A stretch of DNA of 64,000 nt from the NCBI GenBank assembly GCA_024613925.1, contig GCA_024613925.1_4713.1; one strand, 5' to 3'. The DNA is from a phage. Shown piece by piece: positions 63 through 50,748 of the stretch. Made by a program: the position numbers and the translations under genes. The notes under the pieces are model-generated. The model ran no database searches. It was not told the origin of the DNA and saw only the letters and a program-made list of their open reading frames with translations. The stretch's first letter is position 1, and every line of letters starts with the position of its first letter.

Positions 63-764
63 TTAGGATGCGGATAATCTCGTGTACTTCTGGCGAATAT
101 AGTTCTTACGGCGAGCTTCGTCATCCTCGTCACGCCATTCGAGGTAAGCAACGAATCGACGTAACTGCGCTGCAGTCATCGTTGACGAGCGATCTTCTAC
201 ATCTAGAACAACGTAACGAACGCCACCAACGCCATCGCAATCAACGTAACTGAATACCAAAAGGCCATCGCCGTATTCAACGATGGTAACTTCGAATCGT
301 TTATCGAACAAATAAAACAGTTCCGATTCAATGATCATTGGAATGACGCATAAATCGGCACGATTGAGGATTTCCATCATCACCCGTAACGCGCGAGGAG
401 TATGGCGAGCGAACTGGTCGTTAAAACGTTGTTTTATCGCTTGTTCCACGCCATCTGTTTTTGTTCCAAACCAAGGACGTACTACAGATTTCGGTGGTGT
501 GAGACGAAAGCGATATGTTTGTATAAACAACAGAATATCAGCGACGTTGGGAACTTCTTCCTGGTCTTCGTATATCTTGCGGATAATATCCGGAATCGTA
601 ACCATCAAGTATTTCTTATCGCCTCCCACTTTCTCGAGATTAGCAATATGTCCTTCTACCACCGGCTGGTAAACGAAATTATACCAATGACGGTATCTTG
701 CGGCACGCTGGTAGTTCGGGATAAAATTAAGAATGATATTCACTGCGCGTTTTAATGGGTTCAT
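63..764 (-). CDS. hypothetical protein (acidic C-terminus)
   Basis: 233-aa ORF in a minus-strand gene run; no recognisable motif. Confidence 0.45.
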   Translation of the reverse strand: MNPLKRAVNIILNFIPNYQRAARYRHWYNFVYQPVVEGHIANLEKVGGDKKYLMVTIPDIIRKIYEDQEEVPNVADILLFIQTYRFRLTPPKSVVRPWFGTKTDGVEQAIKQRFNDQFARHTPRALRVMMEILNRADLCVIPMIIESELFYLFDKRFEVTIVEYGDGLLVFSYVDCDGVGGVRYVVLDVEDRSSTMTAAQLRRFVAYLEWRDEDDEARRKNYIRQKYTRLSAS

Positions 765-778
765 CGGAAGGATCCTTC

Positions 779-1213
779 TTATGTTTTAATATGCGCATCG
801 TCAATCCCCTCGGTAATCCAGCCGATGGGAAGGACAATCGTTGTTATCGTGTTATGGGTGTAATGATTGAGAAAATGGAAATAGTAATTTTTGTTAGACT
901 GTTCGATCCGCAGGTCGAGGTGCGCGTCTTCAGGTAACCGTAACCAAGCACCGTACAGTTCATTAAACTTGCGCTGAATTTTACCAGGGTTCATTGGAAC
1001 CCCACGACCGTGGTGGCGTAGCTGACGTAATGATTCAATCAAACACTCAGAGATACCCGTTGTCGTTCCGTTATCGCTTGTATCAATAACGATGAACTCT
1101 CGTGACCCACGACCGAGATAAAAACCAGCGACAAAAGCTGTAGCAACAAAAATTATCGTACCGATACCAATATACCAATAGTAAGTATCCATAACGACCT
1201 CACTTATACCCAA
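779..1213 (-). CDS. hypothetical membrane protein
   Basis: 144-aa ORF; N-terminal hydrophobic helix YYWYIGIGTIIFVATAFVAGFYLG; 10-nt overlap with the upstream gene. Confidence 0.45.
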   Translation of the reverse strand: MGISEVVMDTYYWYIGIGTIIFVATAFVAGFYLGRGSREFIVIDTSDNGTTTGISECLIESLRQLRHHGRGVPMNPGKIQRKFNELYGAWLRLPEDAHLDLRIEQSNKNYYFHFLNHYTHNTITTIVLPIGWITEGIDDAHIKT

Positions 1214-1779
1214 TAGTCGGCAAGCGGTTTTACCTTATTAATAGGCAACTGTACTTTACCGATGTTCTCTACATCCGCATCCGCGTAGAGAACAATTTTA
1301 TCATCGTCTCTTTCCCAACGAATTATGAATCGACCAGGAAGAAGATTACTCTGTTCAAGAGACGCAGTAACCTGTTGTGTTAAAACAGACAACCAAGCAG
1401 GCATCAGTGTTGCAACATCTAAGTCATTTGACCACTCAGCACGTTGCTCCACTGGACGTAACATACGTTCGACGGTGCGTTGAACCGTTGCGGTGATATA
1501 GCCTTTATCTTCGTCACTGATTGGATCAGGGCGAGACACAAAACGTTCAGCAGGTTTACGGGAAATATGCTCATGTAAATCGATGAGTGGTGTTGTCATA
1601 GTACTCGCTCCATCAGAATGTAATTGGGTAACCCGTAGGGTTGTCTGCATGCTATTCAGAAGCGCAAAAGCGCCATAAACAACAACGATACTAAGTATGG
1701 TCAAAACAGAAAGCATTAACGTGTATTGCATTGTCATCTCCCCTACATACGCATCTTGAAGATCGGTTAAAAACAACAA
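1204..1779 (-). CDS. hypothetical membrane protein
   Basis: 191-aa ORF; N-proximal hydrophobic segment LMLSVLTILSIVVVYGAFALL. Confidence 0.45.
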   Translation of the reverse strand: MLFLTDLQDAYVGEMTMQYTLMLSVLTILSIVVVYGAFALLNSMQTTLRVTQLHSDGASTMTTPLIDLHEHISRKPAERFVSRPDPISDEDKGYITATVQRTVERMLRPVEQRAEWSNDLDVATLMPAWLSVLTQQVTASLEQSNLLPGRFIIRWERDDDKIVLYADADVENIGKVQLPINKVKPLADYWV

Positions 1780-1832
1780 AAGAAAAAATGATATAAAGCA
1801 AGGTCCCCTGATATCAGGGGACCTTGGGTCAA

Positions 1833-2498
1833 TTAGCTTGCAGCTTCTTCATTTGTATCAGGTTTGCTTCCCCCTAACAAACCGTCAAACAGACCCGTAT
1901 GTTTCAGGTAGAAGAGAGCGATAGCGCCCATTGCTGCTGCGCTCGTCGCCGTTAACGCAACCCCAGCACGATACTGCCATTTACGGTCAGGCTTTTGATC
2001 AAGAGCCATACGACGCATGTATTCAGCCTCTGCTTCATTCCGATGAATTTCGGATTCGGCCAGACGGGCTAAGGTATCGCGGTCAAGGTTATCATAACGT
2101 ACGTTCATGGAAGTTTCCTCTTGTTTGGAAGTTGATTGCTTAGTGGATTCTTGGTCAACAGTCGTTTCAGATGGTTCAAACGGCTGGTTGTTCATTTTCT
2201 GATCTTTATTGGTCATGATAGACTCCTTCGATTTTTGAGATGAAGTTGATTTAAACCATCGTGGATGACGGTATTCGGTTTTACAGGTACAGTTAAGTTT
2301 CTCGTGCAGGAAAGCGTAAAAACGTTTTGCGCCTATACGTAAGGCTTTCAGCATTACCCATCCACGAGCACTCAAACGGTGTAGCTGTTGCGGTATGTCT
2401 AGTTTCCTAGCCAAGCGAAAGTATCTTTCAATCACTTCGATAGGAAACCATTGTTGTTCCACATCGGTGAGACTGAAAGTCTTATCCATGAATGACAT
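1833..2498 (-). CDS. hypothetical protein with C-terminal transmembrane helix
   Basis: 221-aa ORF; C-terminal hydrophobic segment GVALTATSAAAMGAIALFYL; promoter-like motif about 23 nt upstream of start. Confidence 0.5.
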   Translation of the reverse strand: MSFMDKTFSLTDVEQQWFPIEVIERYFRLARKLDIPQQLHRLSARGWVMLKALRIGAKRFYAFLHEKLNCTCKTEYRHPRWFKSTSSQKSKESIMTNKDQKMNNQPFEPSETTVDQESTKQSTSKQEETSMNVRYDNLDRDTLARLAESEIHRNEAEAEYMRRMALDQKPDRKWQYRAGVALTATSAAAMGAIALFYLKHTGLFDGLLGGSKPDTNEEAAS

Positions 2499-2512: not shown

Positions 2513-2537
2513 TCACCTAAGTAATATAGCCGTGAAA
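2513..2537 (-). promoter_or_regulatory. conserved promoter-like motif, copy A (minus reading TTTCACGGCTATATTACTTAGGTGA)
   Basis: one of four near-identical 25-nt copies, all in the same orientation and all upstream of minus-strand gene starts. Confidence 0.5.
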
Positions 2538-2621
2538 AATGATGGAATAAGTTAAATACCGCAACCGCCGCTAATTTTATAGGCTTTTAGCCTAAACCAA
2601 CCATCTTCGGAATCATCATCT

Positions 2622-11202: not shown

Positions 11203-11254
11203 CCTCCTTCCCTAGCCATCAAGGCCGGGGAAGGAGGATTATAGTTTATTTATT
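11203..11254 (+). terminator. intrinsic terminator, probably bidirectional
   Basis: cctccttccctagcc-atcaa-ggccggggaaggagg (13 to 15-bp stem) followed by attatagtttatttatt; A8 tract upstream; lies between convergent genes. Confidence 0.7.
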
Positions 11255-11642
11255 AACGCGTTGCATTCTGGATGATTTCTTTTCCGATCTTAACCAAAGC
11301 GGGTATCTGTACAGCGGTTGCGCCTCGATGACGAAACGCGGTCGTTAACGCAGTATCGATACTCACCGCACGTCCGTGAAGACGATCGAAATAGACTTGA
11401 GTGATTGCAGTAGCGTAATCCTTTCGCTGTTTCTTGGTTTGGCTCAACAGCGCCGCACTATGACTAACGATGAAGTAAGCGATTAAGAAGAACGCCGCTG
11501 AACGCGAACCGGGTAGAAAACCTTGTCGCTTAGGGAGCATCTCACAGTCGCGAACAGAATTATCGTTCGCGAGCTCTTCCATGTCAACGCAGCATAATTT
11601 TGCATAGGTGTGGAGATAGTGGGTAAAAGTTGAATTTAACAT
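11253..11642 (-). CDS. hypothetical protein (small, last gene of early-type cassette)
   Basis: 129-aa ORF with hydrophobic segment AAFFLIAYFIVSHSAALL. Confidence 0.4.
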   Translation of the reverse strand: MLNSTFTHYLHTYAKLCCVDMEELANDNSVRDCEMLPKRQGFLPGSRSAAFFLIAYFIVSHSAALLSQTKKQRKDYATAITQVYFDRLHGRAVSIDTALTTAFRHRGATAVQIPALVKIGKEIIQNATR

Positions 11643-11747
11643 TTTCTTTCCTCGATTACAATGAGTTCAATGTATAGCTTAAACGTCACAGAACGACGTA
11701 TAACGGTTTGTTTTAATTTCTAAGGGGTTTCCCTATCTAAGATTGAA

Positions 11748-12110
11748 TTAAAGCGTTCTGAAGAGTTCTGTCGCGTTCTCGTCACGTAAACAGGCTTCGT
11801 TCAACAACTCCGCCAACAACTTCGATCTAACTTCAACGAATGTCCTGGTACGATGCTCCCAGTCTAAACGGATGGTGTAGGTATCATCCATGTTTCTGTG
11901 GTCCACAACAGATGTTGAACAGCGCGTTTCTTGTTTATTCACAGCACTCCAGACATCACGGATAATCGTCATGCCTTTCTTGGTACACGTAAACGTTAAG
12001 ATACAACGATTATTCGCTGCTTCTTCACAAACGTGAATAAATTCGCTTCGTAGCGATGAGGTCTTGGTCAATCGATCGATAGCGAGCGATAAACCGATAC
12101 GTTGTTGCAT
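11748..12110 (-). CDS. hypothetical protein (small, early-type cassette)
   Basis: 120-aa ORF; start adjoins the stop of 12112..12537. Confidence 0.4.
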   Translation of the reverse strand: MQQRIGLSLAIDRLTKTSSLRSEFIHVCEEAANNRCILTFTCTKKGMTIIRDVWSAVNKQETRCSTSVVDHRNMDDTYTIRLDWEHRTRTFVEVRSKLLAELLNEACLRDENATELFRTL

Positions 12111-12111
12111 A

Positions 12112-12537
12112 TCAAATCCCCTCTTTCAGAATCTCATTAAGACCGTCAGTAATCCAGTCGAACTTCGTCTTAATCATGGCTGGGTTCAATCCATATACTT
12201 CCCACACAAGCTGGGGTTTATGTGTTCCATCGTCCAAACAAAGCACATCGATTGAGAGTACCATACCACCCGTCAATTTCATGTTCTCGCAACTACGAAG
12301 ATATGCGGATTCTAGCAATACTTTCCCTAACGCAGTGCAAGCAAATGTTAACCGGGAAGAGTACAGGTACGATGACGTTTTACAGTAGGTTGCTGATATC
12401 GGTTGAATATGTTTGCGGAGTTTGGCGTCTTCACGTAAAAGCAATAACGTGTGATGTAACCGCGTATGCTCGGTAACCGATGAGCTATACTCACCGATAC
12501 ACTCTTCGGCGACTGATTTAGGCCATTTAATTTTCAT
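12112..12537 (-). CDS. hypothetical protein (small, early-type cassette)
   Basis: 141-aa ORF; N-terminus MKIKWPKSVAEE resembles MEIKFCKSIAIV of the next gene. Confidence 0.4.
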   Translation of the reverse strand: MKIKWPKSVAEECIGEYSSSVTEHTRLHHTLLLLREDAKLRKHIQPISATYCKTSSYLYSSRLTFACTALGKVLLESAYLRSCENMKLTGGMVLSIDVLCLDDGTHKPQLVWEVYGLNPAMIKTKFDWITDGLNEILKEGI

Positions 12538-12552
12538 ATTCGATTCCTCGTA

Positions 12553-12996
12553 TTAACACTGTGTTCCATTCGATAAGCGGGTGGTATCAAAACGATCCAG
12601 TTGGTGTACAATGCTATCAGCAACACGATGCAAATAGTGTATTTTGTCCATTCGTGAAATCGCAGAAATCGTCCAGCAAGCCTCTGACGTCCAATAGGTG
12701 CCGTCTTCACTAAGGCTAACGTTATAAACTAACTTCGTCATCACATTTCTCGCCTTATGCTCAGCAGACCAGAATATGTTTTCTAACACATCCTTCCCCG
12801 TTTGTGAAAACACGAACCCAAGCTTCACGTCGAAGTCGGATGCTTCAAGATTAACGCAGTGAAGATGATTCTCTAACGGCGCAAAAGAGGCTAAACGTTC
12901 CAGCGCATGTTGCAGTGTGGGATGATCGAGCTTTTCGAGATCATCCACAGGTTGTTCAGGTACAATCGCGATCGATTTACAGAATTTAATTTCCAT
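12553..12996 (-). CDS. hypothetical protein (small, early-type cassette; possible paralog of 12112..12537)
   Basis: 147-aa ORF; shared N-terminal pattern with the neighbouring gene. Confidence 0.4.
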   Translation of the reverse strand: MEIKFCKSIAIVPEQPVDDLEKLDHPTLQHALERLASFAPLENHLHCVNLEASDFDVKLGFVFSQTGKDVLENIFWSAEHKARNVMTKLVYNVSLSEDGTYWTSEACWTISAISRMDKIHYLHRVADSIVHQLDRFDTTRLSNGTQC

Positions 12997-13108
12997 GGTA
13001 GGTTCCTCTTGATAGTGGTTGATGATAGTAACGGGGACGGCGATGTCCCCTTGGTTTCTTATTGCCCCGCCCGAACCCGATGAGGTACAGGCGGGTGATG
13101 TTGATGCG

Positions 13109-13516
13109 TTATAGCGGCATCAGACGTTCTTTAAGTTGGGTTAACTTATTTGCAACGATGTTCTCAACGTCGATCATCTTGTTCATGTTGTCGAGGGTAT
13201 CCTGCCAGATGAAAATATCCACGGAACCGGTTCCGACTAACGCGTTCTCAGGACGATGGTCGCGGGTCACGTAGCGTGGTCTCTGCGGGCAGGTTTGTAA
13301 CTCGATCCAAAGCGCATCTAACGGACCACGGTCCGTGACACCTAAGGCGAAGAATTCACCTCGTACGACCAGAACATCATCAGCCGTCCTGACACGGGTT
13401 GATCCTTCGTACACCAATTCCATCTTTGCTCGACAGGCTGGGTTCTCGTTCCATGCCTGGACGGCATCGGCAAGGGCTATTGACGTTGCGGTGGTGTTCG
13501 TTTGATCATGTTGCAT
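13109..13516 (-). CDS. hypothetical protein (small, early-type cassette)
   Basis: 135-aa ORF, co-oriented. Confidence 0.4.
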   Translation of the reverse strand: MQHDQTNTTATSIALADAVQAWNENPACRAKMELVYEGSTRVRTADDVLVVRGEFFALGVTDRGPLDALWIELQTCPQRPRYVTRDHRPENALVGTGSVDIFIWQDTLDNMNKMIDVENIVANKLTQLKERLMPL

Positions 13517-13593
13517 TCTAAGCTCCTGTAACGCTCTCTAAGCGTCGTTTTAAGTTAAGGTATAGTTTCCCTTCTTTGGATTCGTTTATTGCG

Positions 13594-13869
13594 TTATACG
13601 GCTTTTCTGTGCGCGTAGAACGCCTTCGTTCCGTTGTTGATTGCTTCAACCACATCCCGGGTTAACACAACGGCGTTATCGCTTCGAGACGACGGTGCGT
13701 AATACCCTTCACCGTTCTCGGTAATCAGGCGATAACGGACTAAGCCTATGCTCGGTTCAACACGTAGCACCTTCTCAAGTTTGTATTTGATGATCTTCGT
13801 CAGGCTGACTGTGTCTGACGCGTAGATTGCTTTATAAACCTTGTTCTTTGCTGTCGGTTTCATCAACAT
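13594..13869 (-). CDS. hypothetical protein (small, early-type cassette)
   Basis: 91-aa ORF, co-oriented. Confidence 0.4.
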   Translation of the reverse strand: MLMKPTAKNKVYKAIYASDTVSLTKIIKYKLEKVLRVEPSIGLVRYRLITENGEGYYAPSSRSDNAVVLTRDVVEAINNGTKAFYAHRKAV

Positions 13870-13909
13870 GATTTCTGTTGTACTTTCCTTTTCGCTTGTT
13901 GGTGTTGGA

Positions 13910-14263
13910 TTAAGGTTTAGGTTCCGTTTTGTGTTGTGCGAGTAGTGTGTTGATCTGCTCCCGTTGTTCTTTTAAGCATGCAGGAAGCTGGTCTTCCCGT
14001 ACCGTTCCGATTTCCAACGTGATGTACCAGCGTTGTTCGGAAGCCTGCCATTGAAAACTGCTCTGTAACCGCAGGATGTTAGGATCACGTACCTTGTTTG
14101 CGCTGTAGCGGTTGAACCAATCCAGGTAAGCGGCTTTTCCTTCATCATCGGCAACGTAACGCTGCACGCTGTTCTTGCCTTTGTTCTCGTATCCTGTTGT
14201 ACGTATCATGCGAACGTTTCTCCTGTAACGTGTTGTGGATGGCGTAGCATGGTAGCATCCCAT
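13910..14263 (-). CDS. hypothetical protein (small, early-type cassette)
   Basis: 117-aa ORF; true start probably internal (MIRTTGYENKG) just after the stop of 14206..14988. Confidence 0.4.
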   Translation of the reverse strand: MGCYHATPSTTRYRRNVRMIRTTGYENKGKNSVQRYVADDEGKAAYLDWFNRYSANKVRDPNILRLQSSFQWQASEQRWYITLEIGTVREDQLPACLKEQREQINTLLAQHKTEPKP

Positions 14264-14988
14264 TGTACGATCCGGCTCCGGCTTACCCGCATCATGATGG
14301 ATTCATCGTCAAGCCCTGGTTGTGCAACCGGCAACCAACGTTCGTTAAGCACCTTCGCTTCAACGCGTTTCTTGCGGGGATTGTAACGCACCTCGCTGAC
14401 CCAAGCAAATCCAAGTGGATGCACAACCCGTGGATAATACATGCGAAGCAATTGATGCATCCGATCCGTTGCCTCCAAGCTCGCATCCGCCAGGTAAGGT
14501 TTCACCATGGTAAGCTTTTTGGTGTAATACGTTCCAACGGTATGGTTACGCCAACTTGGCAAGGCATGATCCCCTTCTCTCAGTTTGCTATCCGGGTTCA
14601 TCGGCCAGACCTGCTGTTTACCGGCCAGCATCGCGTACTGCCGATCAACGCAACGAACCTGATCGGCGAACAATGGATCCAGAACATCATCCACCGCACC
14701 CTTATTGCGATAACCGTGATGTACCACCAACCTGCTTGCGCTCATCGATGCGGGATGCTGGCTCTTATGCGCATACAGCCCTCCGTCACCGCGAGCGTCG
14801 TAAAGATAACCGCATGCGCCACGCCATATCACCTTGCCTACGGTTCTCTCGTTTTCAAGCAGCATCGTCGGCCCATCAAGCAAATTGGTGAACCACTGCA
14901 CCTTCACGCATTCCGCTTGGACATGCTCGGGTAATGCCTGATACTCTTTTTGGGTGTATAAGGTATCAAAAATGATTTCATCGTTCAT
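14206..14988 (-). CDS. hypothetical protein (first gene of early-type cassette)
   Basis: 260-aa ORF; promoter-like motif copy B about 85 nt upstream; the fully overlapping plus ORF 14263..14934 looks like its antisense shadow. Confidence 0.5.
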   Translation of the reverse strand: MNDEIIFDTLYTQKEYQALPEHVQAECVKVQWFTNLLDGPTMLLENERTVGKVIWRGACGYLYDARGDGGLYAHKSQHPASMSASRLVVHHGYRNKGAVDDVLDPLFADQVRCVDRQYAMLAGKQQVWPMNPDSKLREGDHALPSWRNHTVGTYYTKKLTMVKPYLADASLEATDRMHQLLRMYYPRVVHPLGFAWVSEVRYNPRKKRVEAKVLNERWLPVAQPGLDDESIMMRVSRSRIVQWDATMLRHPQHVTGETFA

Positions 14989-15062: not shown

Positions 15063-15090
15063 CATCACTAAGGTAATATAGTCGTGAAAG
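15063..15090 (-). promoter_or_regulatory. conserved promoter-like motif, copy B (minus reading TTTCACGACTATATTACCTTAGTGATGA)
   Basis: near-identical to copies A, C and D; partially duplicated (catcactagg 10 nt upstream); heads the 8-gene cassette. Confidence 0.55.
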
Positions 15091-15546
15091 GATTTGTGTT
15101 ACAGCGAGGGGTTTTGTTGTTTTTAAGAAGGGATGGATTTAGAAGAGGTGTTTCAAGGAAGGTAAACGAGGATAGGTATTTTGATTTAAGTAATTAAGTA
15201 AGATGTTATCTGTATTCGTTAAAAGTGTATTGTCTATCTTAAGTTATGTCTTATTGTTTAATCGTTTAATATTTTTATCTAAATAGGTTTAACTCTATCT
15301 TGTTTGTGTATTTAAATTAATTTAAAAAGCTTATCTTCAAAACAATGGATAACATGTGTTTACTACCTTAACGGTAACACATGTCATCTGTGCATTACAC
15401 TTCGTTACATGCTAGTTAAATCCGGATAACTCAAAAAACATTTGTGATACTCTTCTTCACGTTGTTCATCAGAGTATCTCGTCTATACTCATTGCATTCG
15501 TATACGACATAACCGTTATACGCTAACGCTACGCTTATAGCTTGAT

Positions 15547-36889: not shown

Positions 36890-37165
36890 TTATTTCGAGG
36901 TTAACCACGATTCAATTGTGGTGAGTTTGCTTCTCAGTACGCGCCAACTAGGGTGTGGTGGGATCACAGCGCCTTTGTCGATTACGGTTAGCTGAACCTG
37001 GTACTTCTGTTGCATACGTGCTACCGTGTCGCTTATCGAGAGGAAAAGCTGGTAACGTTCATATGCCGTCAGTTCACTGTCCTGTTGAACTGCGTTGGCC
37101 GCTAACGTAATTTCGCGTAAGTCCTTTGCATCCACAGAGACGGTAATGAGTTTATATTGACTCAT
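36890..37165 (-). CDS. hypothetical protein
   Basis: 91-aa ORF, co-oriented with the downstream large genes. Confidence 0.4.
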   Translation of the reverse strand: MSQYKLITVSVDAKDLREITLAANAVQQDSELTAYERYQLFLSISDTVARMQQKYQVQLTVIDKGAVIPPHPSWRVLRSKLTTIESWLTSK

Positions 37166-37226
37166 ACGGTTTCCTTATCAACTAGGGTATTGCAGATACA
37201 ATACCCGTCGTCGGACGATAAGTTAA

Positions 37227-39785
37227 TTACTGCTCTTCACGTTCCAGCAGATACTCGGAAGCGGTAATACCGTTTACCGTACGTACTGCTTTCAGACGAG
37301 TATCATCACTCAGAATCACGGTAACAGATTGCAGACCTTTTACTTTGGTTTCGAAGGTCTTGAACACCTGATCCAGCATACGAGCAATGCTTGGGTTGGT
37401 TGCAGCCGATGCGTGAGTGTAACCGCTCTGGTTCAGCTTCAGAATCTTGGCGTTGGTCGGTACGCGAACAACAACATGCGGACGCATCGCGAACACGCTG
37501 TGATTAAACCAGTAAGCATCGTTGCTATCTTCGTCGGTAACGATGTCCGGATTAACACGCATATCCTCGATAGCCGCATCCGCCAAACGACGTTCGATTT
37601 CGTCAGCATCCAGAGAGCCATCTTTCTCCAGTTCTGCACGATACTCGCTCATGGCAACCAGATGACGTTCACGATTCGCTGCGGATTTTTCGTGAGCTGC
37701 TTTCAGGTAGTCATGCATGTTGTACAGTTCAGCCATGGAAAGACGAATGTTCCACTGACCTTCGCCATCACGATTGCAGTAGAGACACTTCAGCATGTTG
37801 ACCCAGGTGTAGTAGCAATTGGAGAACTCATCTTCAATGAACTTCTGGTCCATTTTAAGATCGTGAATCAGCCAACCGGACAGTTCTCCGATATCATCAA
37901 CGAAGCTAGAGATGGTGGTTTCAGAGAAGTTCTTCGGTACGATACGTTTGATCAGCTTATTGACGTCTTTGGTCATGCTATCGTTCAGGAAATGCCAGAT
38001 ACGCAGAGGAATGACATCTCGATACTGTTGCATGATCTGACGATAAGCTTTGATATCGTCGCTACGACCTTTATCAATAGACAACGCATCCAGGAATTCA
38101 TGGATTGCATCCAGCTCTTTGTCGGTATAGGTTCCCAGATAGGAATTGACGGTGGCCAGGAATGCTAATGCGTCGTTTTGGTTAACGTCGGTGTTGGTCT
38201 GCTGAATGATCGCCACTGCGGCTTTAGTTTCAGCATCCTCAACGCTTGACGCTGCGATTGCATCGGTGACGGTAAACAGTTTCATTTCGCGCTGCTCACC
38301 GACAACGATTGGCTCACGCTGAACCGGCTTGTTAAGACTAACACGAACAACTTCTGCTTGCGCGATGCGATCCAGTTTTGCCATTTCCTGCTCTGCCATA
38401 CGACGAGCGGTTGGATCTGATTCAAGTTCGATGTATTCCACTTCTTCCTCCGTGAGGGATGTAATGTCAACAATGGTTTCATGAAGAATTCCGTTTTCGT
38501 CGATACGTGCCCGACGAGCGAAGTGCCTGAAGTCATACAACGTTGGCCAGCGACTATTAGGTGCGTAGTCTTTGGCTTTCAGACGCATCTGCATAAATTC
38601 TTCATGTTGAACAACACGACCGTAACGCTTAGCATCTTCGGTCGCATCAATTGGATTAACGGTCTTTGTTACCGTAGCGGAACGAGCCGTACGAATGGGT
38701 TCCGGTTTCACCTGCGCAGGTTCAGGTTGAACGGGTTTCTGCTGCCCAGCCTTAACATGCCATTCGGGCTCTTCGTACTGCTCAGCAAATTGCTCAGCCG
38801 CTGCAAAGATATCGTTGATACCACCAATATCTCCTTCAGGATTTGTCGAGTAAATCCGTGGTTGTGGTGCCTCGTAACGCGGCGCTGTAGCAGCAGGTGC
38901 ATCATCAACGATAGGATCGTCATCACCAACATCATACAAACGGTTGAACGCACAATCCTTCGAATCGATGTACGATGGCGCTTGTGGTTGAACAACCGTC
39001 GGCCGAGGTTGTGCGCCGTATCCTGGCGTTGTTGGAGCCATACCACGCATAACTGCCGGATTAGGCCGGTATTGCGGTTGTGGATAGGTTCCACCATACA
39101 TGGCATATGCAGGCTGTTGTGGTTGACCGTACCCGTTGCTAACCATTGCGCTTGCTTGCGGCCCACGATAAGTCATCCCCATCTGCATCACCTGCTGCTT
39201 CAAACCACGTGACTTCTGAGCGATTTGCGCTAGGCTTCCGCTTTTATTCAGCTGCGTGTACTTATTCGCGGCTTCCGGGTTAATGCGTGATAATTCAATC
39301 GCGCGATAATATTCCGGGTACTGATTAGGTTCAAAGAGCCACGTTACAAGATGATACAGCGCAACTGTGCTCACAGCAGCAGAGACGATCTGGTCGTCGG
39401 ACGCGTTCTGCGGCATCGGGTTGATGTAAGAGAACACGTTCCAACAACAGTCTTCAACAAGCGATTCCATCATCATGTCGTTATTGGTATAACGTGCGAC
39501 GAACTCGGTTTGTATTTTGTCTTGCTGAGCGAAGTCTTTCAGGACATTAAAGATAGCTTGACGGATTTTAACGATCGTCGCTTCTTGGGTGATGAAGTTA
39601 TAGTTCTGCTGATATGAGGGTTGTTGGTATTGTGGTGGTTGATAGGCGTTATTCGGGTATGCGCCGTACGGTGATTGCTGATACTGTTGCTGACGAACCT
39701 GTTCAGCCGCATAATTAACCGTGCTCGTATAAGGGTTTTCGCTATAGCCCATTTGTTGATACATGTTGTTACTACCGTTATACAT
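37227..39785 (-). CDS. large protein with Q/Y/P-rich low-complexity N-terminal and internal regions
   Basis: 852 aa; N-terminal about 65 aa and residues about 215..260 rich in Q, Y, P, N, G (YQQ, PQQP, QPQ repeats); long codon-aligned antisense ORFs suggest strong codon bias. Confidence 0.55.
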   Translation of the reverse strand: MYNGSNNMYQQMGYSENPYTSTVNYAAEQVRQQQYQQSPYGAYPNNAYQPPQYQQPSYQQNYNFITQEATIVKIRQAIFNVLKDFAQQDKIQTEFVARYTNNDMMMESLVEDCCWNVFSYINPMPQNASDDQIVSAAVSTVALYHLVTWLFEPNQYPEYYRAIELSRINPEAANKYTQLNKSGSLAQIAQKSRGLKQQVMQMGMTYRGPQASAMVSNGYGQPQQPAYAMYGGTYPQPQYRPNPAVMRGMAPTTPGYGAQPRPTVVQPQAPSYIDSKDCAFNRLYDVGDDDPIVDDAPAATAPRYEAPQPRIYSTNPEGDIGGINDIFAAAEQFAEQYEEPEWHVKAGQQKPVQPEPAQVKPEPIRTARSATVTKTVNPIDATEDAKRYGRVVQHEEFMQMRLKAKDYAPNSRWPTLYDFRHFARRARIDENGILHETIVDITSLTEEEVEYIELESDPTARRMAEQEMAKLDRIAQAEVVRVSLNKPVQREPIVVGEQREMKLFTVTDAIAASSVEDAETKAAVAIIQQTNTDVNQNDALAFLATVNSYLGTYTDKELDAIHEFLDALSIDKGRSDDIKAYRQIMQQYRDVIPLRIWHFLNDSMTKDVNKLIKRIVPKNFSETTISSFVDDIGELSGWLIHDLKMDQKFIEDEFSNCYYTWVNMLKCLYCNRDGEGQWNIRLSMAELYNMHDYLKAAHEKSAANRERHLVAMSEYRAELEKDGSLDADEIERRLADAAIEDMRVNPDIVTDEDSNDAYWFNHSVFAMRPHVVVRVPTNAKILKLNQSGYTHASAATNPSIARMLDQVFKTFETKVKGLQSVTVILSDDTRLKAVRTVNGITASEYLLEREEQ

Positions 39786-39819
39786 TTCTTACGATCCTTT
39801 TTATTTATTCGGTTAGGTG

Positions 39820-41619
39820 TCAATCGATTATGTCGTGATCGTTAATTTCTACAATTTCTTCATCGAATCGACCGACGTCTTTCTTCAAGCCTGCATTGGT
39901 TGCTGCAACGTCATTTGCAATTTGTGGGGTAATGATTAACCGACCGCGTTCGTCGATAGGTGCGTACATACTGAACTTCTGACGTCCGGTTGGTTCGGAG
40001 TGTGGAAGATTCAGATAGCTTGCACAGAACGGGATGGAACCACTAACCAAACGACTCTCGTCAGCCAATGCAGCACCGCCTGCGTTTTGGCTCTGGAGAA
40101 CAACATGCGTGCTCACTTTGAACAGCATGCAATCACCAGGTGACTGAATCGATGTTGCCACTTTTTCACGTTTGTCACGATTGCTCTGGATATTGAGAAT
40201 CGCTTCCGTTGCAACTTGATTTCGCAACGCCTTCTGTACATCGCGATTGGTCATCTCTTTACGGTTGTTCTGTCGTTTACCACGTTCCGTGGTTTTAAGA
40301 TGGAACCCCAGTTTAAAGATGCTCTTACGCACATCCTCCATGACATATTCCAACACCATCAATTCCTTACCGAACATCGTCGTGGTATCAACACGACTCA
40401 TTTCGATAGTGACATTATCAATCAGATACGCCATAAATTCGTAGAAGTCGTCGCAAGGAATATTTTCCTGTTTGAACTTCTTCTGTTGAATCTCGTCAAC
40501 GTAAAGATCGAGACTGTCGATGTGGTGGTTTACATCACGCAACAAACGCGCATCCGCATTGTTGTTATTAAAGATAATCAAACCGAGTAATGTACGCCAA
40601 TGGTCTGGCGCATTCGCGAACTCTTCAACCGGATAGTCTTCCGGAAAACGATCGTAATAACGGTCGATGAGATACAAGAATGCACCGACAAGGCCAAGAA
40701 CAATACGTTCCGTGCCTCCACGTCTTACAGCAATTTGAATATCAGGATGTTTGTAACGTACAGCGCTAGCGCTACGACTTTTACCGCTTTTGCTGATACT
40801 AAAGCCTTTAGGAATAACCCCCATGGTGCGATAGATTACCCATTGGTCACGCGGAAAATCACGTTCAGCAAGGTTCCGTCCGGTTACGGCTTCGACACCT
40901 GCAAAACGTCGGAAACACTCACCCACCCCGTACTTCGCAAAGAGATAGTGACCCAGTGTGGTTACGCTGGTGTGGTTGATGTTGTCGCCGTTCACTTTAC
41001 TTTGTTTGGTAAGATGATAGATTTGCGACCAGGGTAATGACAGGTAATGACGATAATCGATACCGGTCGGTGTATCATTGCTCAGGAACTGATACGGTGT
41101 ACGTTTAACCGTGATTTTGTCACGCGGAAGCATGATGAACGCCATGTCTTTCGTGTAACTGATTACAGGGTCAGCGAGCACCGCACTGAGAATGAAGTTC
41201 GCACCACGTAGACGCATTTTACCACCCTGACCTACTGCGGGCAATAGGAGAGGGTGTCGGATAATACAGTAGTCCTTTCCTGGTTCACGACGGTCACCTG
41301 ATTCCATCGCGCCGTACCAGCGGAATTCTAGCATCACCATAAACACATCGGAAGGCGCAAGGTCGAAGGTCAGCTTACCGCTATCCTTCCCTTTGGTTTT
41401 CTTTCCTCCGCTTAAGTAGTGGAACTGTTCGCGGGCCATACAGCGACGCAGGCCATGATACACCAGATCCTTAGGTAAACTATCTTTGCTGTTCCGCCAA
41501 AGACGATCAACATAGGACTCAACATCTTGCATCTTATCGACGACGATGTTGCGTGCTATCTTCTCGTTCATCTTCGGTGCAAGCTCAGCGACAGCTTTGC
41601 AGAATCTAGGATCCATCAC
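39820..41619 (-). CDS. hypothetical protein
   Basis: 599-aa ORF; no polymerase (NADFDGD-type) or other motif recognised. Confidence 0.5.
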   Translation of the reverse strand: MMDPRFCKAVAELAPKMNEKIARNIVVDKMQDVESYVDRLWRNSKDSLPKDLVYHGLRRCMAREQFHYLSGGKKTKGKDSGKLTFDLAPSDVFMVMLEFRWYGAMESGDRREPGKDYCIIRHPLLLPAVGQGGKMRLRGANFILSAVLADPVISYTKDMAFIMLPRDKITVKRTPYQFLSNDTPTGIDYRHYLSLPWSQIYHLTKQSKVNGDNINHTSVTTLGHYLFAKYGVGECFRRFAGVEAVTGRNLAERDFPRDQWVIYRTMGVIPKGFSISKSGKSRSASAVRYKHPDIQIAVRRGGTERIVLGLVGAFLYLIDRYYDRFPEDYPVEEFANAPDHWRTLLGLIIFNNNNADARLLRDVNHHIDSLDLYVDEIQQKKFKQENIPCDDFYEFMAYLIDNVTIEMSRVDTTTMFGKELMVLEYVMEDVRKSIFKLGFHLKTTERGKRQNNRKEMTNRDVQKALRNQVATEAILNIQSNRDKREKVATSIQSPGDCMLFKVSTHVVLQSQNAGGAALADESRLVSGSIPFCASYLNLPHSEPTGRQKFSMYAPIDERGRLIITPQIANDVAATNAGLKKDVGRFDEEIVEINDHDIID

Positions 41620-41655
41620 ACACTCCTTTCAGAAAGTTGCTTAAGCAGATTAAAG

Positions 41656-43098
41656 TTACTTTTTCGATGCCGCTTTCTCAAGAATCTTGAAAAAGGTCAT
41701 ACCTATACCGACAACGGCCGCAGTTATACTCGCAGCGGCTTTCCAAACATCGACGTTACGTTGACGTCGCGCTTCTTCCGCCTCACGTTGTCTTTTTGCC
41801 TCCTCATCACGTCGACGTATCTCAGCAGCAAACTCGTCGTGCTTACGTTTAGCTTCTTCGTCTCGACGACGAAGTTCAGCGACGAATTCTTCATGTTTGC
41901 GTTTAGCCTCGTCATCACGACGTTTTAAATCAGCTTGATAATCTTCGTGTATTTGTCTACGTAGATCATCTTGACGCTTCATTTCGGCTTGGTGTTGTTC
42001 CATCCTACGTTTTTGTTCGTCTTTAAGCTGATCGAGTTCGGCTTTATGTTGTTCATCGCGCAGCTTTGCGTCGGCGCGATGCGCCTCATGCATCTGTGCG
42101 ATAACTGCCTTGTGTTCATCCGCCATACGTCGCATTTCAGCCATCACCCCTTTAAGGGTTTCTTCTGATGCCTTACGTTCGTAGCTACGTTGGTCGAAAT
42201 CATTTTTGTAGGCTTCTTTTTGGATGGGGTCGCGCCAATGCAATGCCGATTCACGTGTCGGAAAAACATTGTACTTCCACATCTCTTTTTCCAAATCTTC
42301 GACCGGTACGAAGATGGAGTCATTATTCCCGAAGGTAACCAACATACCTGGCGCGCCTGCTCCATTCGTTGGTTTTATTTCGAACGCTTTCCCCAGCACG
42401 TTAACCCATAAGCTATACGGATTATGAAAGTCGGGTGGCGTCCAATGGATAGTGAGTTGCGTTCCGAGAATTCGGAAACCCTCTGTTTTTCCCGTCAAGC
42501 TCCGCGCGCACGTTGCGATGTAGGGGTGATCAATCCCTTTCGTAACGTGGTCTGCGCTTTTGTATTCTCCTTTAACTTTTACGATTGCCACGTTGATTTG
42601 CGCGACATAAGCGGGTTGATTAAAGTTCAACGTGTTGAGGTCAATTTGACATATTTCATCCAGCGTATCGTACCAGTCTTGCTGGTCTAATAGGCGCGGC
42701 ATTTTCTCGGTGTTAACAATACGACGGATATGCGGTTTCCTTATCGCGTAACCTGTGCCGTTTTTAACACGGAGTATATCCCGACGTCTACCCGCGTAGA
42801 CGAAGTTTCTGAATGCACCATTCGCATTAGATACGTCATGGCTGTCAACTATTACAGGACTACGAAATTTTGAACGTCGTACGATCCTGAATGTATTGCC
42901 GTCCTCAACCCTACCAGGAATGTACTGGAACATATTGTCGGAGGTGATCACCAACACGGTATGGCCAGATTCATTAATACATGCCCATCCTAATTCCAGG
43001 TCATATAACGGTTCAGCATAACCGTCAATGCGATAAGCGTGCGTACCATCCCACGGTTCGAACGCGGTATCACATATTGGCATGGAGGGCATCGTCAA
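41656..43098 (-). CDS. tail-anchored membrane protein with charged coiled-coil tandem repeats
   Basis: 480 aa; C-terminal hydrophobic helix AAASITAAVVGIGMTFFKIL; repeats RRDEEAKRKH(E/D)EF(V/A)AE(L/I)R; likely ATG start at about 43092 with GGAGG 6 nt upstream. Confidence 0.5.
   Translation of the reverse strand: MTMPSMPICDTAFEPWDGTHAYRIDGYAEPLYDLELGWACINESGHTVLVITSDNMFQYIPGRVEDGNTFRIVRRSKFRSPVIVDSHDVSNANGAFRNFVYAGRRRDILRVKNGTGYAIRKPHIRRIVNTEKMPRLLDQQDWYDTLDEICQIDLNTLNFNQPAYVAQINVAIVKVKGEYKSADHVTKGIDHPYIATCARSLTGKTEGFRILGTQLTIHWTPPDFHNPYSLWVNVLGKAFEIKPTNGAGAPGMLVTFGNNDSIFVPVEDLEKEMWKYNVFPTRESALHWRDPIQKEAYKNDFDQRSYERKASEETLKGVMAEMRRMADEHKAVIAQMHEAHRADAKLRDEQHKAELDQLKDEQKRRMEQHQAEMKRQDDLRRQIHEDYQADLKRRDDEAKRKHEEFVAELRRRDEEAKRKHDEFAAEIRRRDEEAKRQREAEEARRQRNVDVWKAAASITAAVVGIGMTFFKILEKAASKK
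41735..41945 (-). repeat. in-frame tandem DNA repeat (about 48 bp units) encoding the coiled-coil repeats
   Basis: recurring cgtttagc(t/c)tc.tc.tc.cgacg units read directly; boundaries approximate. Confidence 0.55.
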
Positions 43099-43240: not shown

Positions 43241-43266
43241 GTCACCTAGGTAATGTAAGCGTCAAA
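43241..43266 (-). promoter_or_regulatory. conserved promoter-like motif, copy C (minus reading TTTGACGCTTACATTACCTAGGTGAC)
   Basis: near-identical to copies A, B and D; about 150 nt upstream of the start of 41656..43098 and just downstream of the terminator of the major structural gene. Confidence 0.5.
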
Positions 43267-43299
43267 TTTTTTCTATTCGCAACGTAAACGGCATAGAAA

Positions 43300-43329
43300 C
43301 CTCCCCCAACCCTTACGGGCTGAGGGAGG
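43300..43329 (-). terminator. intrinsic terminator: perfect 13-bp stem with GUAA tetraloop on the minus strand
   Basis: minus reading CCUCCCUCAGCCC-GUAA-GGGUUGGGGGAGG followed by UUUCUAUGCCGUUU; about 100 nt after the stop of 43429..45651. Confidence 0.75.
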
Positions 43330-43428
43330 CTGACTTATGTATCACGGTGCCGGATGAATGTCCGGTGCAATGAAACCATCCGCAACGTTGTCGTCAAGAA
43401 TATCGTCCAACGAAGCAGCTACGGTAGT

Positions 43429-48144: not shown

Positions 48145-48471
48145 TTAACTTATTGTCATGAATTCATTAGGTGAAAATTTCCAGCCGTTCTCAGTGAGAA
48201 GCGTGTTGAGTTTCGCCGCAACGATAAGCCATGCGTGCATGGCTGTTACATCGTATTGGCGATTCACTCGACGTTGGTTTTCGATATTGATTTGCTCCTG
48301 TTCAGTGATGTTTGGATAAAGTGCGATAGCGCTAGGTTTACCCAGCGCGCTAGTCATCACCGCCGTACATTCACTGATAATGTTGTTTAAGTGGTAGTTA
48401 TACACCGTTCCACGCATGACGCGATGACGGCATTCGATAATAGCGTCGTAAATGATTTCTCGAGTAATCAT
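48145..48471 (-). CDS. hypothetical protein
   Basis: 108-aa ORF. Confidence 0.4.
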   Translation of the reverse strand: MITREIIYDAIIECRHRVMRGTVYNYHLNNIISECTAVMTSALGKPSAIALYPNITEQEQINIENQRRVNRQYDVTAMHAWLIVAAKLNTLLTENGWKFSPNEFMTIS

Positions 48472-48477
48472 GATAAT

Positions 48478-48879: not shown

Positions 48880-48949
48880 AGATGTTGTCCTCTTAATTGG
48901 ATTTAGATTGTTGGGTGTGTTATTGGGAAATGAAAACGTTGTTTCGGTT

Positions 48950-49519: not shown

Positions 49520-49834
49520 CGTATTTTACCTTTCTATGTTAGGTGGGTTGCGGATAGAAGAATCAATGCATAGATTGATCGTTCTTTGTTAGAAATTATT
49601 GCCGAACCGGTTATGGTTATATGGTTGGTAGTACGCCATAGGCTCCGGTTTAGGGATTTCCATGGTCGGATTTTTGGAATTGATTGCCATCACGTAAATT
49701 GTTACGGGCGATACCGCGTGATTCATTTCGACGGCCACACGGTTGTTTGATCGATTGTTCAACTGGTACTGATTACGATTGGTTGATAACAGTAGAGCTA
49801 CTGCCTAAAACTCTACCGTTGTTTAGATACCGTA

Positions 49835-50695: not shown

Positions 50696-50748
50696 TTTTG
50701 TAGCTCCTTGATTAAAGTAAGGATGGATACGATTATTTATTATCGCTT

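What the first reader, a model, noticed from the sequence alone, without database searches (positions are those of the whole stretch)
15063..15090. Conserved 25-nt promoter-like motif in four copies, all upstream of minus-strand genes
Near-identical copies at 2513..2537, 15063..15090, 43241..43266 and 51605..51629. The minus-strand consensus is TTTCACG(A/G)CTA(T/C)ATTAC(C/T)TAGGTGA, always 20 to 155 nt upstream of a minus-strand start codon (genes starting at 2498, 14988, about 43092 and 51549). In three of four cases there is no plus-strand gene the motif could serve. Such length and conservation are atypical of host sigma70 promoters and fit a phage-specific RNA polymerase or phage-modified polymerase. 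From memory and unverified, the core TA(T/C)ATTAC resembles the early-promoter core reported for phiKZ-like giant phages. Two copies sit immediately downstream of a terminator, giving terminator-promoter units.
Basis: partly seen in the sequence, partly recalled or inferred. Interest (0 to 1): 0.6.

Follow-up and report, generated by a model that had tools for sequence, protein, structure and literature searches.

The report
Early promoters of a Goslar-like jumbo phage
The four repeated 25-base motifs are very probably the "early" promoters that a giant E. coli phage's own injected RNA polymerase uses to switch on its first genes; this class is already known from phage phiKZ, so the find is a sound annotation, not a surprise.

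Summary
There are exactly four copies, all on the minus strand (2513-2537, 15065-15089, 43242-43266, 51605-51629), against none expected by chance.

The window is the first ~64 kb of a close relative (93-97% identity) of Escherichia phage Goslar. Goslar is a nucleus-forming jumbo phage (Chimalliviridae) with virion and non-virion multisubunit RNA polymerases.

- **Motif size and copy number.** The motif is really about 40 nt long. Goslar carries 12 strong copies, all on the minus strand and all ahead of minus-strand genes. One sits in front of the nuclear-shell gene chmA.
- **Match to phiKZ.** The core TAYATTAC, then 5 nt, then TG(A), is the same element that marks phiKZ early promoters. phiKZ has 23 TATATTAC-N5-TG sites on its coding strand and none on the other; 28-32 early promoters are published.
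- **Match across the family.** The element also lies upstream of chmA in 8 of 9 other genera checked.
- **Independent test.** A scoring matrix built only from non-Goslar phages ranks the four window copies 1-4 out of 128,000 positions.

I conclude these are virion-RNA-polymerase early promoters, with the start predicted at the G of the terminal TGA. Sigma-70 and N4-type hairpin readings fail.

Two copies follow strong conserved terminator hairpins. One such hairpin-promoter unit is an island of homology inside a 2.7-kb indel, which recalls the T4 PeSL cassettes.

Verdict: a new member of a known kind, of low to moderate interest.

The parts
2513..2552 (-). Early promoter P1 (40-nt extended element). 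Core TATATTAC at 2521-2528. Predicted start is the G at 2514. It heads the gene 1833-2498 (Goslar gp004 homologue; Goslar annotates the ATG at 2489).
   Evidence: 0 mismatches; score 57.7; rank 1 with the non-Goslar matrix, 32.3; conserved in Goslar.
15065..15104 (-). Early promoter P2. Core TATATTAC at 15073-15080. Predicted start is the G at 15066. It heads a run of eight small genes of unknown function, 14988 down to 11253.
   Evidence: rank 3, 17.7. In one search the motif is kept against Goslar, with differences only at degenerate positions, while the ~35 nt just downstream are unalignable.
43242..43281 (-). Early promoter P3. Core TACATTAC at 43250-43257, preceded by an A-run. Predicted start is the G at 43243. 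A 151-nt leader runs to the ATG at 43092.
   Evidence: rank 2, 20.1; identical in Goslar. The upstream A-run + TTT resembles the chmA promoters of Goslar and phiKZ.
51605..51644 (-). Early promoter P4. Core TACATTAC at 51613-51620. Predicted start is the G at 51606. It heads gene 50749-51549.
   Evidence: 0 mismatches; 59.1; rank 4, 13.3.
43290..43330 (-). Terminator-type hairpin (43299-43330) with tail TTTCTATGC. It lies just after the stop codon of the major head protein gene and about 25 nt upstream of P3.
   Evidence: -30.5 kcal/mol, z -6.3; shared 22-nt arm + tail with the P4 hairpin; member of a 9-copy hairpin + TT(N)TATG family.
51657..51696 (-). Terminator-type hairpin (51665-51696) with tail TTCTATGC, about 28 nt upstream of P4.
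   Evidence: -26.4 kcal/mol, z -5.3; (the hairpin sequence recurs at four other Goslar sites with 87-97% identity).
51545..51701 (-). Hairpin + P4 + leader + ribosome-binding site + ATG. This 157-bp block is 95.5% identical to Goslar 49657-49812, and both of its flanks are absent from Goslar.
   Evidence: window 49622-51544 and 51702-52352 have no Goslar counterpart; alignment.
11253..14988 (-). Predicted early transcription unit of P2: eight minus-strand ORFs ending against a convergent plus-strand gene (10094-11182).
   Evidence: ORF map; Goslar annotation gp021-gp014; the first gene has no family match.
36890..43092 (-). Predicted transcription unit of P3: four genes (41656-43092, 39820-41619, 37227-39785, 36890-37165) ending against a convergent plus-strand gene.
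   Evidence: 39820-41619 matches phrog_2943 'polymerase' (E 7e-120). The other two tested (41656-43092, 37227-39785) have no informative match; 36890-37165 was not tested.
48145..51549 (-). Predicted transcription unit of P4: five ORFs. The first two (50749-51549 and 49835-50695) are absent from Goslar.
   Evidence: the three genes tested (50749-51549, 49835-50695, 48950-49519) have no family match.
63..2498 (-). Predicted transcription unit of P1: gene 1833-2498. If the hairpin that Goslar annotates after gp004 is read through, it also covers 1204-1779, 779-1213 and 63-764.
   Evidence: (Goslar gp004-gp001, with a terminator annotated at Goslar 1841-1862).

Best explanation
The four motifs are early promoters of a Goslar-like chimallivirus. 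They are read by the phage's virion-packaged multisubunit RNA polymerase (vRNAP), which enters the cell with the DNA.

- **Architecture (shown).** About 40 nt: an upstream TTAA/A-rich block, a TTT(C)A(C)G block, a near-invariant AT-rich core TA(T/C)ATTAC, 5 variable nucleotides, then TG(A).
- **Start site (inferred).** By analogy with phiKZ, phiR1-37 and AR9, where the start lies 6 nt after the conserved element, transcription should begin at the G of the terminal TGA: window 2514, 15066, 43243 and 51606.
- **Operon context (shown).** Each promoter heads a run of minus-strand genes, mostly of unknown function, that ends at a convergent gene.
- **Contrast with late genes (shown/inferred).** The structural-gene blocks of the window lack the motif (shown). 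They are presumably read later by the non-virion polymerase (inferred).
- **Insulation (inferred).** At P3 and P4 a conserved terminator hairpin just upstream separates the early unit from the preceding late genes.

For: 1. **Discrete family.** The window has 4 copies against 0 expected. Goslar has 12 strong copies scoring 45-64, then one weak site at 12.4, and nothing else reaches the reporting threshold of 8.
2. **Placement.** All 16 copies are on the minus strand ahead of minus-strand genes. By Goslar's annotation, 10 lie fully between genes. One overlaps 5 nt of a gene end. One lies in the doubtful 5' extension of a 62-aa ORF. Even a crude ORF map that overruns promoters gives P = 1.4e-6 for Goslar.
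3. **Same element in phiKZ.** TATATTAC-N5-TG occurs 23 times on the plus strand and 0 on the minus, with matching upstream TTT and A-rich blocks. [quoted passage not shown] It also places an early motif with a primary start site at PHIKZ054 (PMC8244752; PMC10914365).
4. **Orthologous position.** An exact or one-off core + N5 + TG lies upstream of chmA in Goslar, phiKZ, Eowyn, RSL2, RAY, Proteus phage 10, PhiPA3, Noxifer and RP12. These ChmA proteins are only 22-26% identical to Goslar's. The core starts 80 nt before the ATG in both Goslar and phiKZ. Reviews state that vRNAP first transcribes chmA and the nvRNAP genes (PMC12908238).
5. **Independent model.** A matrix from 14 non-Goslar sites ranks the four window copies 1-4 (32.3, 20.1, 17.7, 13.3; next best 5.1).
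6. **Footprint.** Between the window and Goslar, substitutions inside the motifs fall mainly at the degenerate positions of the motif (one exception: A to G in the TTTCAC block of copy 4), while adjacent DNA can be unalignable.
7. **AR9 parallel.** The AR9 early consensus is AAATATATATTAT-(6N)-G+1. [quoted passage not shown]
8. **Goslar biology.** Its vRNAP travels with the injected DNA, and 175 of 249 genes are expressed by 5 min (bioRxiv 10.1101/2023.09.20.558163).
Against: - No transcript data were available, so neither the start site nor the early timing is shown for any of the four copies.
- The polymerase genes lie outside the window. Their presence is inferred from the 93-97% identical Goslar genome.
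- Twelve or thirteen promoters seem few for the 175 genes reported on at 5 min, so other early start signals or long read-through must exist.
- The literal phiKZ early consensus could not be read in any paper held (Ceyssens 2014 is not held). The link to phiKZ rests on my own scan of its genome plus the published counts and descriptions.
- Copy 2 also passes a lenient sigma-70 scan.
Confidence: 0.86

Rival explanations
1. They are strong host sigma-70 promoters, long and conserved like T4 early promoters, used by E. coli RNA polymerase right after injection.
For: The core TATATT/TACATT looks like a -10 hexamer. Copy 2 has GTAACA 16 nt upstream and passes the scan at 9 of 12. T4 early promoters and PeSL cassettes are also long, conserved sigma-70-type elements next to stem-loops (PMC2839356).
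Against: - Three of four copies fail the sigma-70 scan, and hits are at chance level.
- The most conserved positions lie where sigma-70 reads little: the TTTCACG block in the would-be spacer, the AC after the hexamer, and TG(A) at the predicted start.
- In Goslar the injected genome sits in a vesicle together with vRNAP.
Confidence: 0.04
2. They are promoters for the non-virion polymerase (middle or late class), or are read by both phage polymerases.
For: The element ends in TG with the G as the likely start, which loosely recalls the phiKZ late motif TATG(+1). PHIKZ054 carries both an early and a middle promoter.
Against: - Published middle and late motifs are short and weakly conserved (AAAATTACC; TATG), in contrast with the 'well-conserved extended' early element. 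These copies are long and near-invariant.
- The structural-gene blocks of the window lack the motif.
- The matrix that retrieves the copies was built from sites with the early-type core.
Confidence: 0.05
3. They are repeated elements with a non-promoter role: a regulator's binding site, an RNA-level signal in 5' leaders, or a recombination or homing target.
For: TCAC...GTGA gives a weak inverted repeat in some copies. The P4 unit sits at the borders of an indel.
Against: - The inverted repeat is not maintained and does not covary across copies, and the motif has no stable fold (-1.9 to -3.2 kcal/mol).
- The distance to the start codon varies from 15 to 150 nt, so it is not a translation signal.
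- Orientation, placement between genes and identity with the phiKZ early element all point to a promoter.
- A recombination role would be an addition to promoter function, not a replacement for it.
Confidence: 0.03

Closest known systems
Early (virion RNA polymerase) promoters of Pseudomonas phage phiKZ and other Chimalliviridae
   Same: - Identical core TATATTAC and the same 5-nt spacer to a conserved TG(A).
- A TTT block about 6 nt upstream of the core and an A-rich block further upstream.
- Location between genes and co-oriented with them.
- One copy in front of chmA at the same distance: the core starts 80 nt before the ATG in both Goslar and phiKZ.
   Different: - The Goslar lineage accepts C at core position 3 (TACATTAC in 2 of 4 window copies).
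- The block just upstream of the core reads TTTCACGRC rather than TTTAAACAG/TTTAAGATC.
- There are fewer copies (12-13 per 237 kb, against 28-32 per 280 kb).
- The host is E. coli, and the proteins are only about 22-25% identical.
- No transcript mapping exists for these sites.
Early promoters of Bacillus phage AR9 (AAATATATATTAT-(6N)-G+1)
   Same: An extended, near-invariant AT-rich element containing TATATTA, followed by 6 nt and a G start, and read by a virion multisubunit polymerase.
   Different: AR9 has uracil DNA, is not a chimallivirus, and its element ends in T rather than C. The flanking blocks differ.
T4-type PeSL cassettes (promoter-early stem-loops)
   Same: A conserved early promoter paired with a terminator stem-loop, repeated in the genome, next to small genes of unknown function, and found at indel borders between close relatives (PMC2839356; PMC4122927).
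   Different: PeSL promoters are sigma-70 type and read by the host enzyme. Recombination and mini-circles were shown experimentally for T4-type phages; here there is only comparative evidence from one or two loci.
Bacteriophage N4 early promoters (virion RNA polymerase, DNA hairpin)
   Same: Both are read by a polymerase injected with the DNA.
   Different: From general knowledge, N4 vRNAP is a single-subunit enzyme that recognises a short DNA hairpin. These motifs form no stable hairpin.

Membership tests
Chimalliviridae / phiKZ-like early promoters (vRNAP) | A near-invariant AT-rich core (TATATTAC in phiKZ) | tested here: met
   The window cores are TATATTAC (x2) and TACATTAC (x2). phiKZ has 33 plus-strand TATATTAC, 23 of them with N5-TG, against 0 such sites on the other strand.
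Chimalliviridae / phiKZ-like early promoters (vRNAP) | Fixed spacing from the core to a conserved start, with the start site 6 nt downstream of the element | tested here: inconclusive
   The sequence part is met: core-N5-TG(A) is present in all 4 window and all 12 Goslar copies and in 23 phiKZ sites. The start site itself cannot be seen without RNA data. The 6-nt rule is taken from PMC5312081.
Chimalliviridae / phiKZ-like early promoters (vRNAP) | Extended conservation around -20 and -30 (T-rich and A-rich blocks) | tested here: met
   A TTT block and a TTAA/A-run block are conserved in all copies. The same layout is seen in phiKZ and seven other genera, and is described for phiKZ and 201phi2-1.
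Chimalliviridae / phiKZ-like early promoters (vRNAP) | A model built from other members retrieves the sites specifically | tested here: met
   The matrix built from 14 non-Goslar sites ranks the four copies 1-4 of 128,000 window positions. In Goslar the 12 sites take ranks 1-11 and 13.
Chimalliviridae / phiKZ-like early promoters (vRNAP) | Located between genes, co-oriented with the downstream genes, at the head of gene runs | tested here: met
Chimalliviridae / phiKZ-like early promoters (vRNAP) | The genome encodes a virion-packaged multisubunit RNA polymerase | tested here: inconclusive
   This is met for Goslar, which is 93-97% identical. Goslar has multiple RNAP beta/beta' genes, and its vRNAP subunit gp196 has been tracked with injected DNA. 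The genes lie outside the 64-kb window, so for the window's own genome this is an inference.
Chimalliviridae / phiKZ-like early promoters (vRNAP) | Transcripts appear within minutes and are independent of host polymerase and of new protein synthesis | not testable with these tools
   This needs RNA from infected cells with and without rifampicin and chloramphenicol.
Host sigma-70 promoters | -35 and -10 hexamers 16-18 nt apart | tested here: not met
   Only copy 2 passes (9/12). The numbers found are at or below the shuffled expectation.
N4-type virion polymerase promoters | A short, stable DNA hairpin at the promoter | tested here: not met
   The motifs fold at only -1.9 to -3.2 kcal/mol, and the TCAC/GTGA arms are not maintained across copies.
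T7-like single-subunit polymerase promoters | The phage encodes a single-subunit RNA polymerase | tested here: not met
   No such gene appears in the Goslar annotation; only multisubunit beta/beta' pieces are listed. The ACGACTA resemblance to the T7 promoter comes from memory only.
PeSL-like mobile regulatory cassettes | A composite of an early promoter and a terminator stem-loop, repeated in the genome | tested here: met
   P3 and P4 have this composite, as does Goslar 86690/86744. The hairpin sequence is repeated at 4-5 sites. P1 and P2 have no adjacent hairpin.
PeSL-like mobile regulatory cassettes | Cassettes lie at the borders of insertions, deletions or replacements between close relatives | tested here: inconclusive
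   This holds for the only true indel between the window and Goslar (P4) and for one locus in a related metagenomic genome. That is too few cases for a statistic.
PeSL-like mobile regulatory cassettes | Recombination between cassettes has been demonstrated (e.g. mini-circles) | not testable with these tools
   This needs PCR or sequencing of phage DNA populations.

The most novel reading that the evidence does not exclude
The hairpin + early-promoter + leader + start-codon units may be more than regulatory signals. They could act as portable homology blocks through which Goslar-like phages gain, lose and swap early genes of unknown function. That would be a vRNAP-promoter counterpart of the sigma-70-based PeSL cassettes of T4-type phages.

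What I can show is limited:
- The 157-bp P4 unit is 95.5% identical to Goslar, while 1.9 kb on one side (two novel genes) and 0.65 kb on the other are absent from Goslar.
- A related metagenomic genome carries an extra unit with about 470 nt of novel DNA at another promoter site.
- The hairpin sequences recur around the genome.
Probability: 0.3. Interest if true: 0.45.

Novelty: new member of a known kind. Interest (0 to 1): 0.3.

Why it matters
Goslar is the E. coli model for nucleus-forming phages, including work on the early infection vesicle and the phage nucleus. In the literature I could search, I found no published early-promoter consensus or map for it, and the GenBank record annotates terminators only.

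A sequence-defined set of 12-13 early promoters, four of them in this window, would:
- say which operons the injected polymerase can start on its own;
- give exact predictions for 5'-end mapping;
- provide compact parts for expressing genes from inside the early vesicle.

The near-identity of the core and its spacing between E. coli, Klebsiella, Proteus, Erwinia, Ralstonia and Pseudomonas phages, whose shell proteins share only ~22-26% identity, suggests that promoter recognition by the virion polymerase is one of the most conserved features of the family. None of this changes the current picture; it fills it in.

Tried and rejected
- **Sigma-70 reading.** Scanned all four regions. Only copy 2 passes, at chance level.
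- **Hairpin promoter (N4 type).** The motifs do not fold, and the TCAC/GTGA arms do not covary.
- **Weaker extra copies.** Neither the 65-nt Goslar matrix nor the cross-phage matrix finds a fifth site in the window. Isolated core 8-mers at 40587 and 51258 (minus strand) and 3411 (plus strand) have no flanking match.
- **5' stem-loop starting at the predicted +1.** Seen in 7 of 12 Goslar sites against 34% of random G-starting 40-mers. This is not significant, so I dropped it as evidence.
- **Second, middle-type motif (AAAAGTTTACA).** Only two exact copies in Goslar and one in the window, too few to define a class.
- **Rfam and tRNA scans.** Nothing found in the window.
- **Literature.** Ceyssens 2014, the primary phiKZ promoter paper, is not held. 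Supplementary start-site tables of Wicke 2021 and Putzeys 2024 are not held. I therefore derived the phiKZ motif from the genome itself.
- **Exact-pattern scan of IMG/VR.** The motif occurs only in Goslar, in two Goslar-like genomes, and as three isolated hits in three other contigs (two with identical flanks) that lack the flanking features.

Full report
**1. The observation**

Reading the four places on the minus strand shows the claimed repeats.
- 2513-2537 (0 mismatches)
- 15065-15089 (2 mismatches)
- 43242-43266 (3 mismatches)
- 51605-51629 (0 mismatches)

None of 100 dinucleotide-preserving shuffles gave any match. Each copy lies ahead of a minus-strand start codon. From the motif's 3' end the distances are 15 nt (24 nt to the ATG used in Goslar's annotation), 77, 150 and 56 nt.

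**2. Where the window comes from**

Two 4-kb pieces match only Escherichia phage vB_EcoM_Goslar, at 93.5% and 97.6% identity and nearly the same coordinates. Whole-window comparison shows collinearity with Goslar positions 40-61451. There are three diverged stretches and one true indel.

Goslar is a 237-kb nucleus-forming jumbo phage. Its annotation lists several RNA polymerase beta/beta' subunit genes, the nuclear shell protein and PhuZ tubulin. None of the polymerase genes lies in the window.

**3. The motif is a discrete, longer family**

In the whole Goslar genome the consensus with up to six mismatches finds 12 copies, all on the minus strand. Aligning them shows conservation over about 40 nt: TTAAnCCAAnAnnTTTCACGRCTAYATTACYTnnnTGA.

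A 65-nt matrix separates the family sharply:
- Goslar's 12 sites score 45-64, one weak site (187609-187673) scores 12.4, and nothing else reaches 8.
- The window's four copies score 43-59 and nothing else reaches 8.

Against Goslar's annotation, ten sites lie fully between genes. One overlaps the last 5 nt of gp213. One lies inside the 5' part of the annotated 62-aa gp047. That last case is probably an over-extended gene call, because an in-frame ATG with a ribosome-binding site follows the promoter.

Every site is followed by a minus-strand gene: gp004, gp021, gp040, gp047/046, gp075, gp105, gp159, gp175, gp182, gp246 (nuclear shell protein, followed by an RNA polymerase subunit gene), gp214 and gp200.

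A deliberately crude ORF map, which lets longest ATG-ORFs overrun promoters, still gives P = 1.4e-6 for the Goslar sites falling in the 8.9% ORF-free DNA.

The bare core TAYATTAC occurs 22 times on Goslar's minus strand and once on the plus strand, with about 10 expected on each.

**4. Conservation pattern**

Alignments of the four regions with Goslar show the following:
- At copy 2, differences inside the motif fall only at its degenerate positions: the Y of the core and the three N before TGA. The ~35 nt immediately downstream cannot be aligned.
- At copy 4, a 157-bp block is 95.5% identical while both flanks are unrelated. The block holds the hairpin, motif, leader, ribosome-binding site and ATG.

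This is the pattern expected of a constrained signal.

**5. Test of the phiKZ recollection**

I fetched the whole phiKZ genome.
- TATATTAC occurs 33 times on the main coding strand (about 15 expected) and 9 times on the other strand.
- TATATTAC-N5-TG occurs 23 times against 0.
- The 23 share upstream blocks (TTTAAACAG, TTTAAGATC or TTTGAGATT preceded by A-rich sequence).
- All seven copies in the first 50 kb lie in gaps ahead of genes, including PHIKZ054 (nuclear shell).
- Further plus-strand copies lie ahead of PHIKZ068 and PHIKZ260.

Published work reports:
- 28 early promoters, later 32, with a conserved AT-rich extended -10 and a T-rich upstream part;
- an early motif with a primary start at PHIKZ054, and a primary start at PHIKZ260 (PMC8244752; PMC10914365);
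- the early element described as a 'well-conserved extended consensus', unlike the weak middle (AAAATTACC) and late (TATG) motifs (PMC4666361).

The window motif shares the core and the spacing to TG exactly.

For AR9 the printed consensus is AAATATATATTAT-(6N)-G+1. For phiKZ and phiR1-37 the start is stated to lie 6 nt after the element (PMC5312081). Applied here, the start is the G of the terminal TGA.

**6. Family-wide check at an orthologous position**

The Goslar shell protein finds homologues in 98 phage records at only 22-29% identity. I fetched the upstream regions from eight genera.
- Exact TATATTAC-N5-TG lies 70-137 nt before the start codon in Klebsiella phage Eowyn, Ralstonia RSL2, Erwinia RAY and Proteus phage 10, as in phiKZ and Goslar.
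- PhiPA3 and Noxifer have TATATCAC, and RP12 has CATATTAC.
- Only Xanthomonas LucasX shows nothing.

In Goslar and phiKZ the core starts 80 nt before the ATG, and the 34 nt around it are about three-quarters identical by eye. Reviews state that vRNAP first transcribes chmA and the nvRNAP genes (PMC12908238). They also state that every RNAP-encoding jumbo phage has a conserved, bioinformatically findable motif ahead of its early operons (PMC7598289).

**7. Independent model**

I built a 40-nt matrix from 14 sites that contain no Goslar-lineage sequence: seven from phiKZ and seven chmA-upstream sites. Scanned over both strands of the window, its top four positions are the four copies (32.3, 20.1, 17.7, 13.3), and the next score is 5.1. 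In Goslar the 12 sites take ranks 1-11 and 13. I regard this as the strongest membership test available without RNA data.

**8. Rivals**

- **Sigma-70.** Only copy 2 passes a lenient scan, and hits are at chance level. The best-conserved positions are ones sigma-70 does not read.
- **N4-type hairpin.** The motifs do not fold.
- **T7-type.** No single-subunit polymerase gene is annotated in Goslar.
- **Middle/late (nvRNAP).** Those motifs are short and weak, and the structural-gene blocks of the window lack this element.
- **Non-promoter repeat.** This does not explain the orientation, the variable distance to the start codon, or the identity with the phiKZ early element.

**9. What the promoters drive**

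Each copy heads a run of minus-strand genes that ends at a convergent plus-strand gene. I tested the first genes of each unit (eight in all) against PHROGs and Pfam. Only 39820-41619 ('polymerase', phrog_2943, E 7e-120) has an informative match. That fits early genes, which are mostly of unknown function; in AR9 the share is 76%.

For Goslar, RNA-seq found 175 of 249 genes expressed at 5 min, and vRNAP stays with the injected DNA in a vesicle. That paper maps the chmA start only roughly and gives no consensus. I found no publication or annotation of Goslar early promoters in the library.

**10. Terminator-promoter units**

Upstream of P3 and P4 lie strong hairpins (-30.5 and -26.4 kcal/mol; z = -6.3 and -5.3). 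They share the 22-nt string GGGTTGGGRGAGGKTTCTATGC.

They belong to a wider family. Of 19 TT(N)TATG(C/T) strings in the window, nine are directly preceded by a hairpin of -14 kcal/mol or better, against 2.5% of random 43-mers. The generic terminator scan missed them because the T-run is short. P1 and P2 have no adjacent hairpin.

**11. A possible extra role**

The only true indel between the window and Goslar is 49622-52352. Inside it, the 157-bp hairpin-P4-leader-ATG block (51545-51701) is the sole homologous piece.

A related metagenomic genome (IMG/VR UViG_3300011560) has the window-type gene upstream of P4. It also has an extra hairpin-promoter unit with about 470 nt of novel DNA at the site of another Goslar promoter.

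This resembles PeSL cassettes of T4-type phages, which mediate modular shuffling (PMC2839356). With one or two cases it remains a hypothesis.

**12. Verdict**

The motifs are very probably vRNAP early promoters of a Goslar-like chimallivirus (confidence about 0.86). The class is known and such motifs are expected in every phage of this kind. The finding is therefore a new member of a known kind, with practical value for a model phage and modest general interest.

Noticed in passing
window 15320-15810 (minus strand): An 835-bp gene-free gap lies between a virion structural gene and promoter P2. About 480 nt of it are almost 100% identical to Goslar, while neighbouring DNA is about 93% identical. 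It has no ORF over 37 aa, no Rfam match at E<=1 and no tRNA. As RNA it folds at -128 kcal/mol (z = -5.6). It is a candidate structured non-coding RNA.
   Followed up: partly
window 15705-15720 (minus strand); Goslar 173086-173096: The string AGTAAAAGTTTACAGA occurs at the start of the conserved gap and otherwise only upstream of Goslar chmA, ahead of its early promoter. It resembles the published phiKZ middle-promoter motif AAAATTACC, so it may be a middle-type promoter.
   Followed up: partly
window 3489(+), 4099(-), 5245(+), 15771(-), 17650(+), 43291(-), 51657(-), 57614(-)/57643(+): A family of GC-rich hairpins is followed by a conserved TT(N)TATG(C/T) tail: 9 of 19 such tails have a strong hairpin, against 2.5% of random 43-mers. 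TATG is the late-promoter consensus of phiKZ, so the tail could double as a start signal for the non-virion polymerase. This is untested.
   Followed up: partly
window 49622-51544 and 51702-52352: These window-specific stretches are absent from Goslar. The first holds two genes with no family match (50749-51549, 49835-50695). The second holds most of a 243-aa ORF (51703-52434), which is present in a related metagenomic genome.
   Followed up: partly
Goslar genome (L001-L005), both strands: The core TAYATTAC is almost absent from the plus strand (1 copy against about 10 expected). This may reflect selection against antisense early starts, but codon effects were not controlled for.
   Followed up: no
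window 20847-22896, 5512-6081, 14553-14896: Three stretches inside conserved genes are too diverged from Goslar for megablast. The largest, 2 kb, lies within the 864-aa protein 20526-23120, next to tail-fibre-like virion genes, and may bear on host range. The 344-bp one lies in the first gene after P2.
   Followed up: no
Goslar 49584-49772 (gp047): The annotated 62-aa gp047 starts just after a terminator hairpin and runs across the early promoter. An in-frame ATG with a ribosome-binding site lies 111 nt downstream, so the gene call is probably over-extended.
   Followed up: partly
window 43093-43243 (minus strand): The predicted 151-nt leader of the P3 unit is almost fully conserved with Goslar and contains internal inverted repeats. 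A regulatory leader is possible.
   Followed up: no
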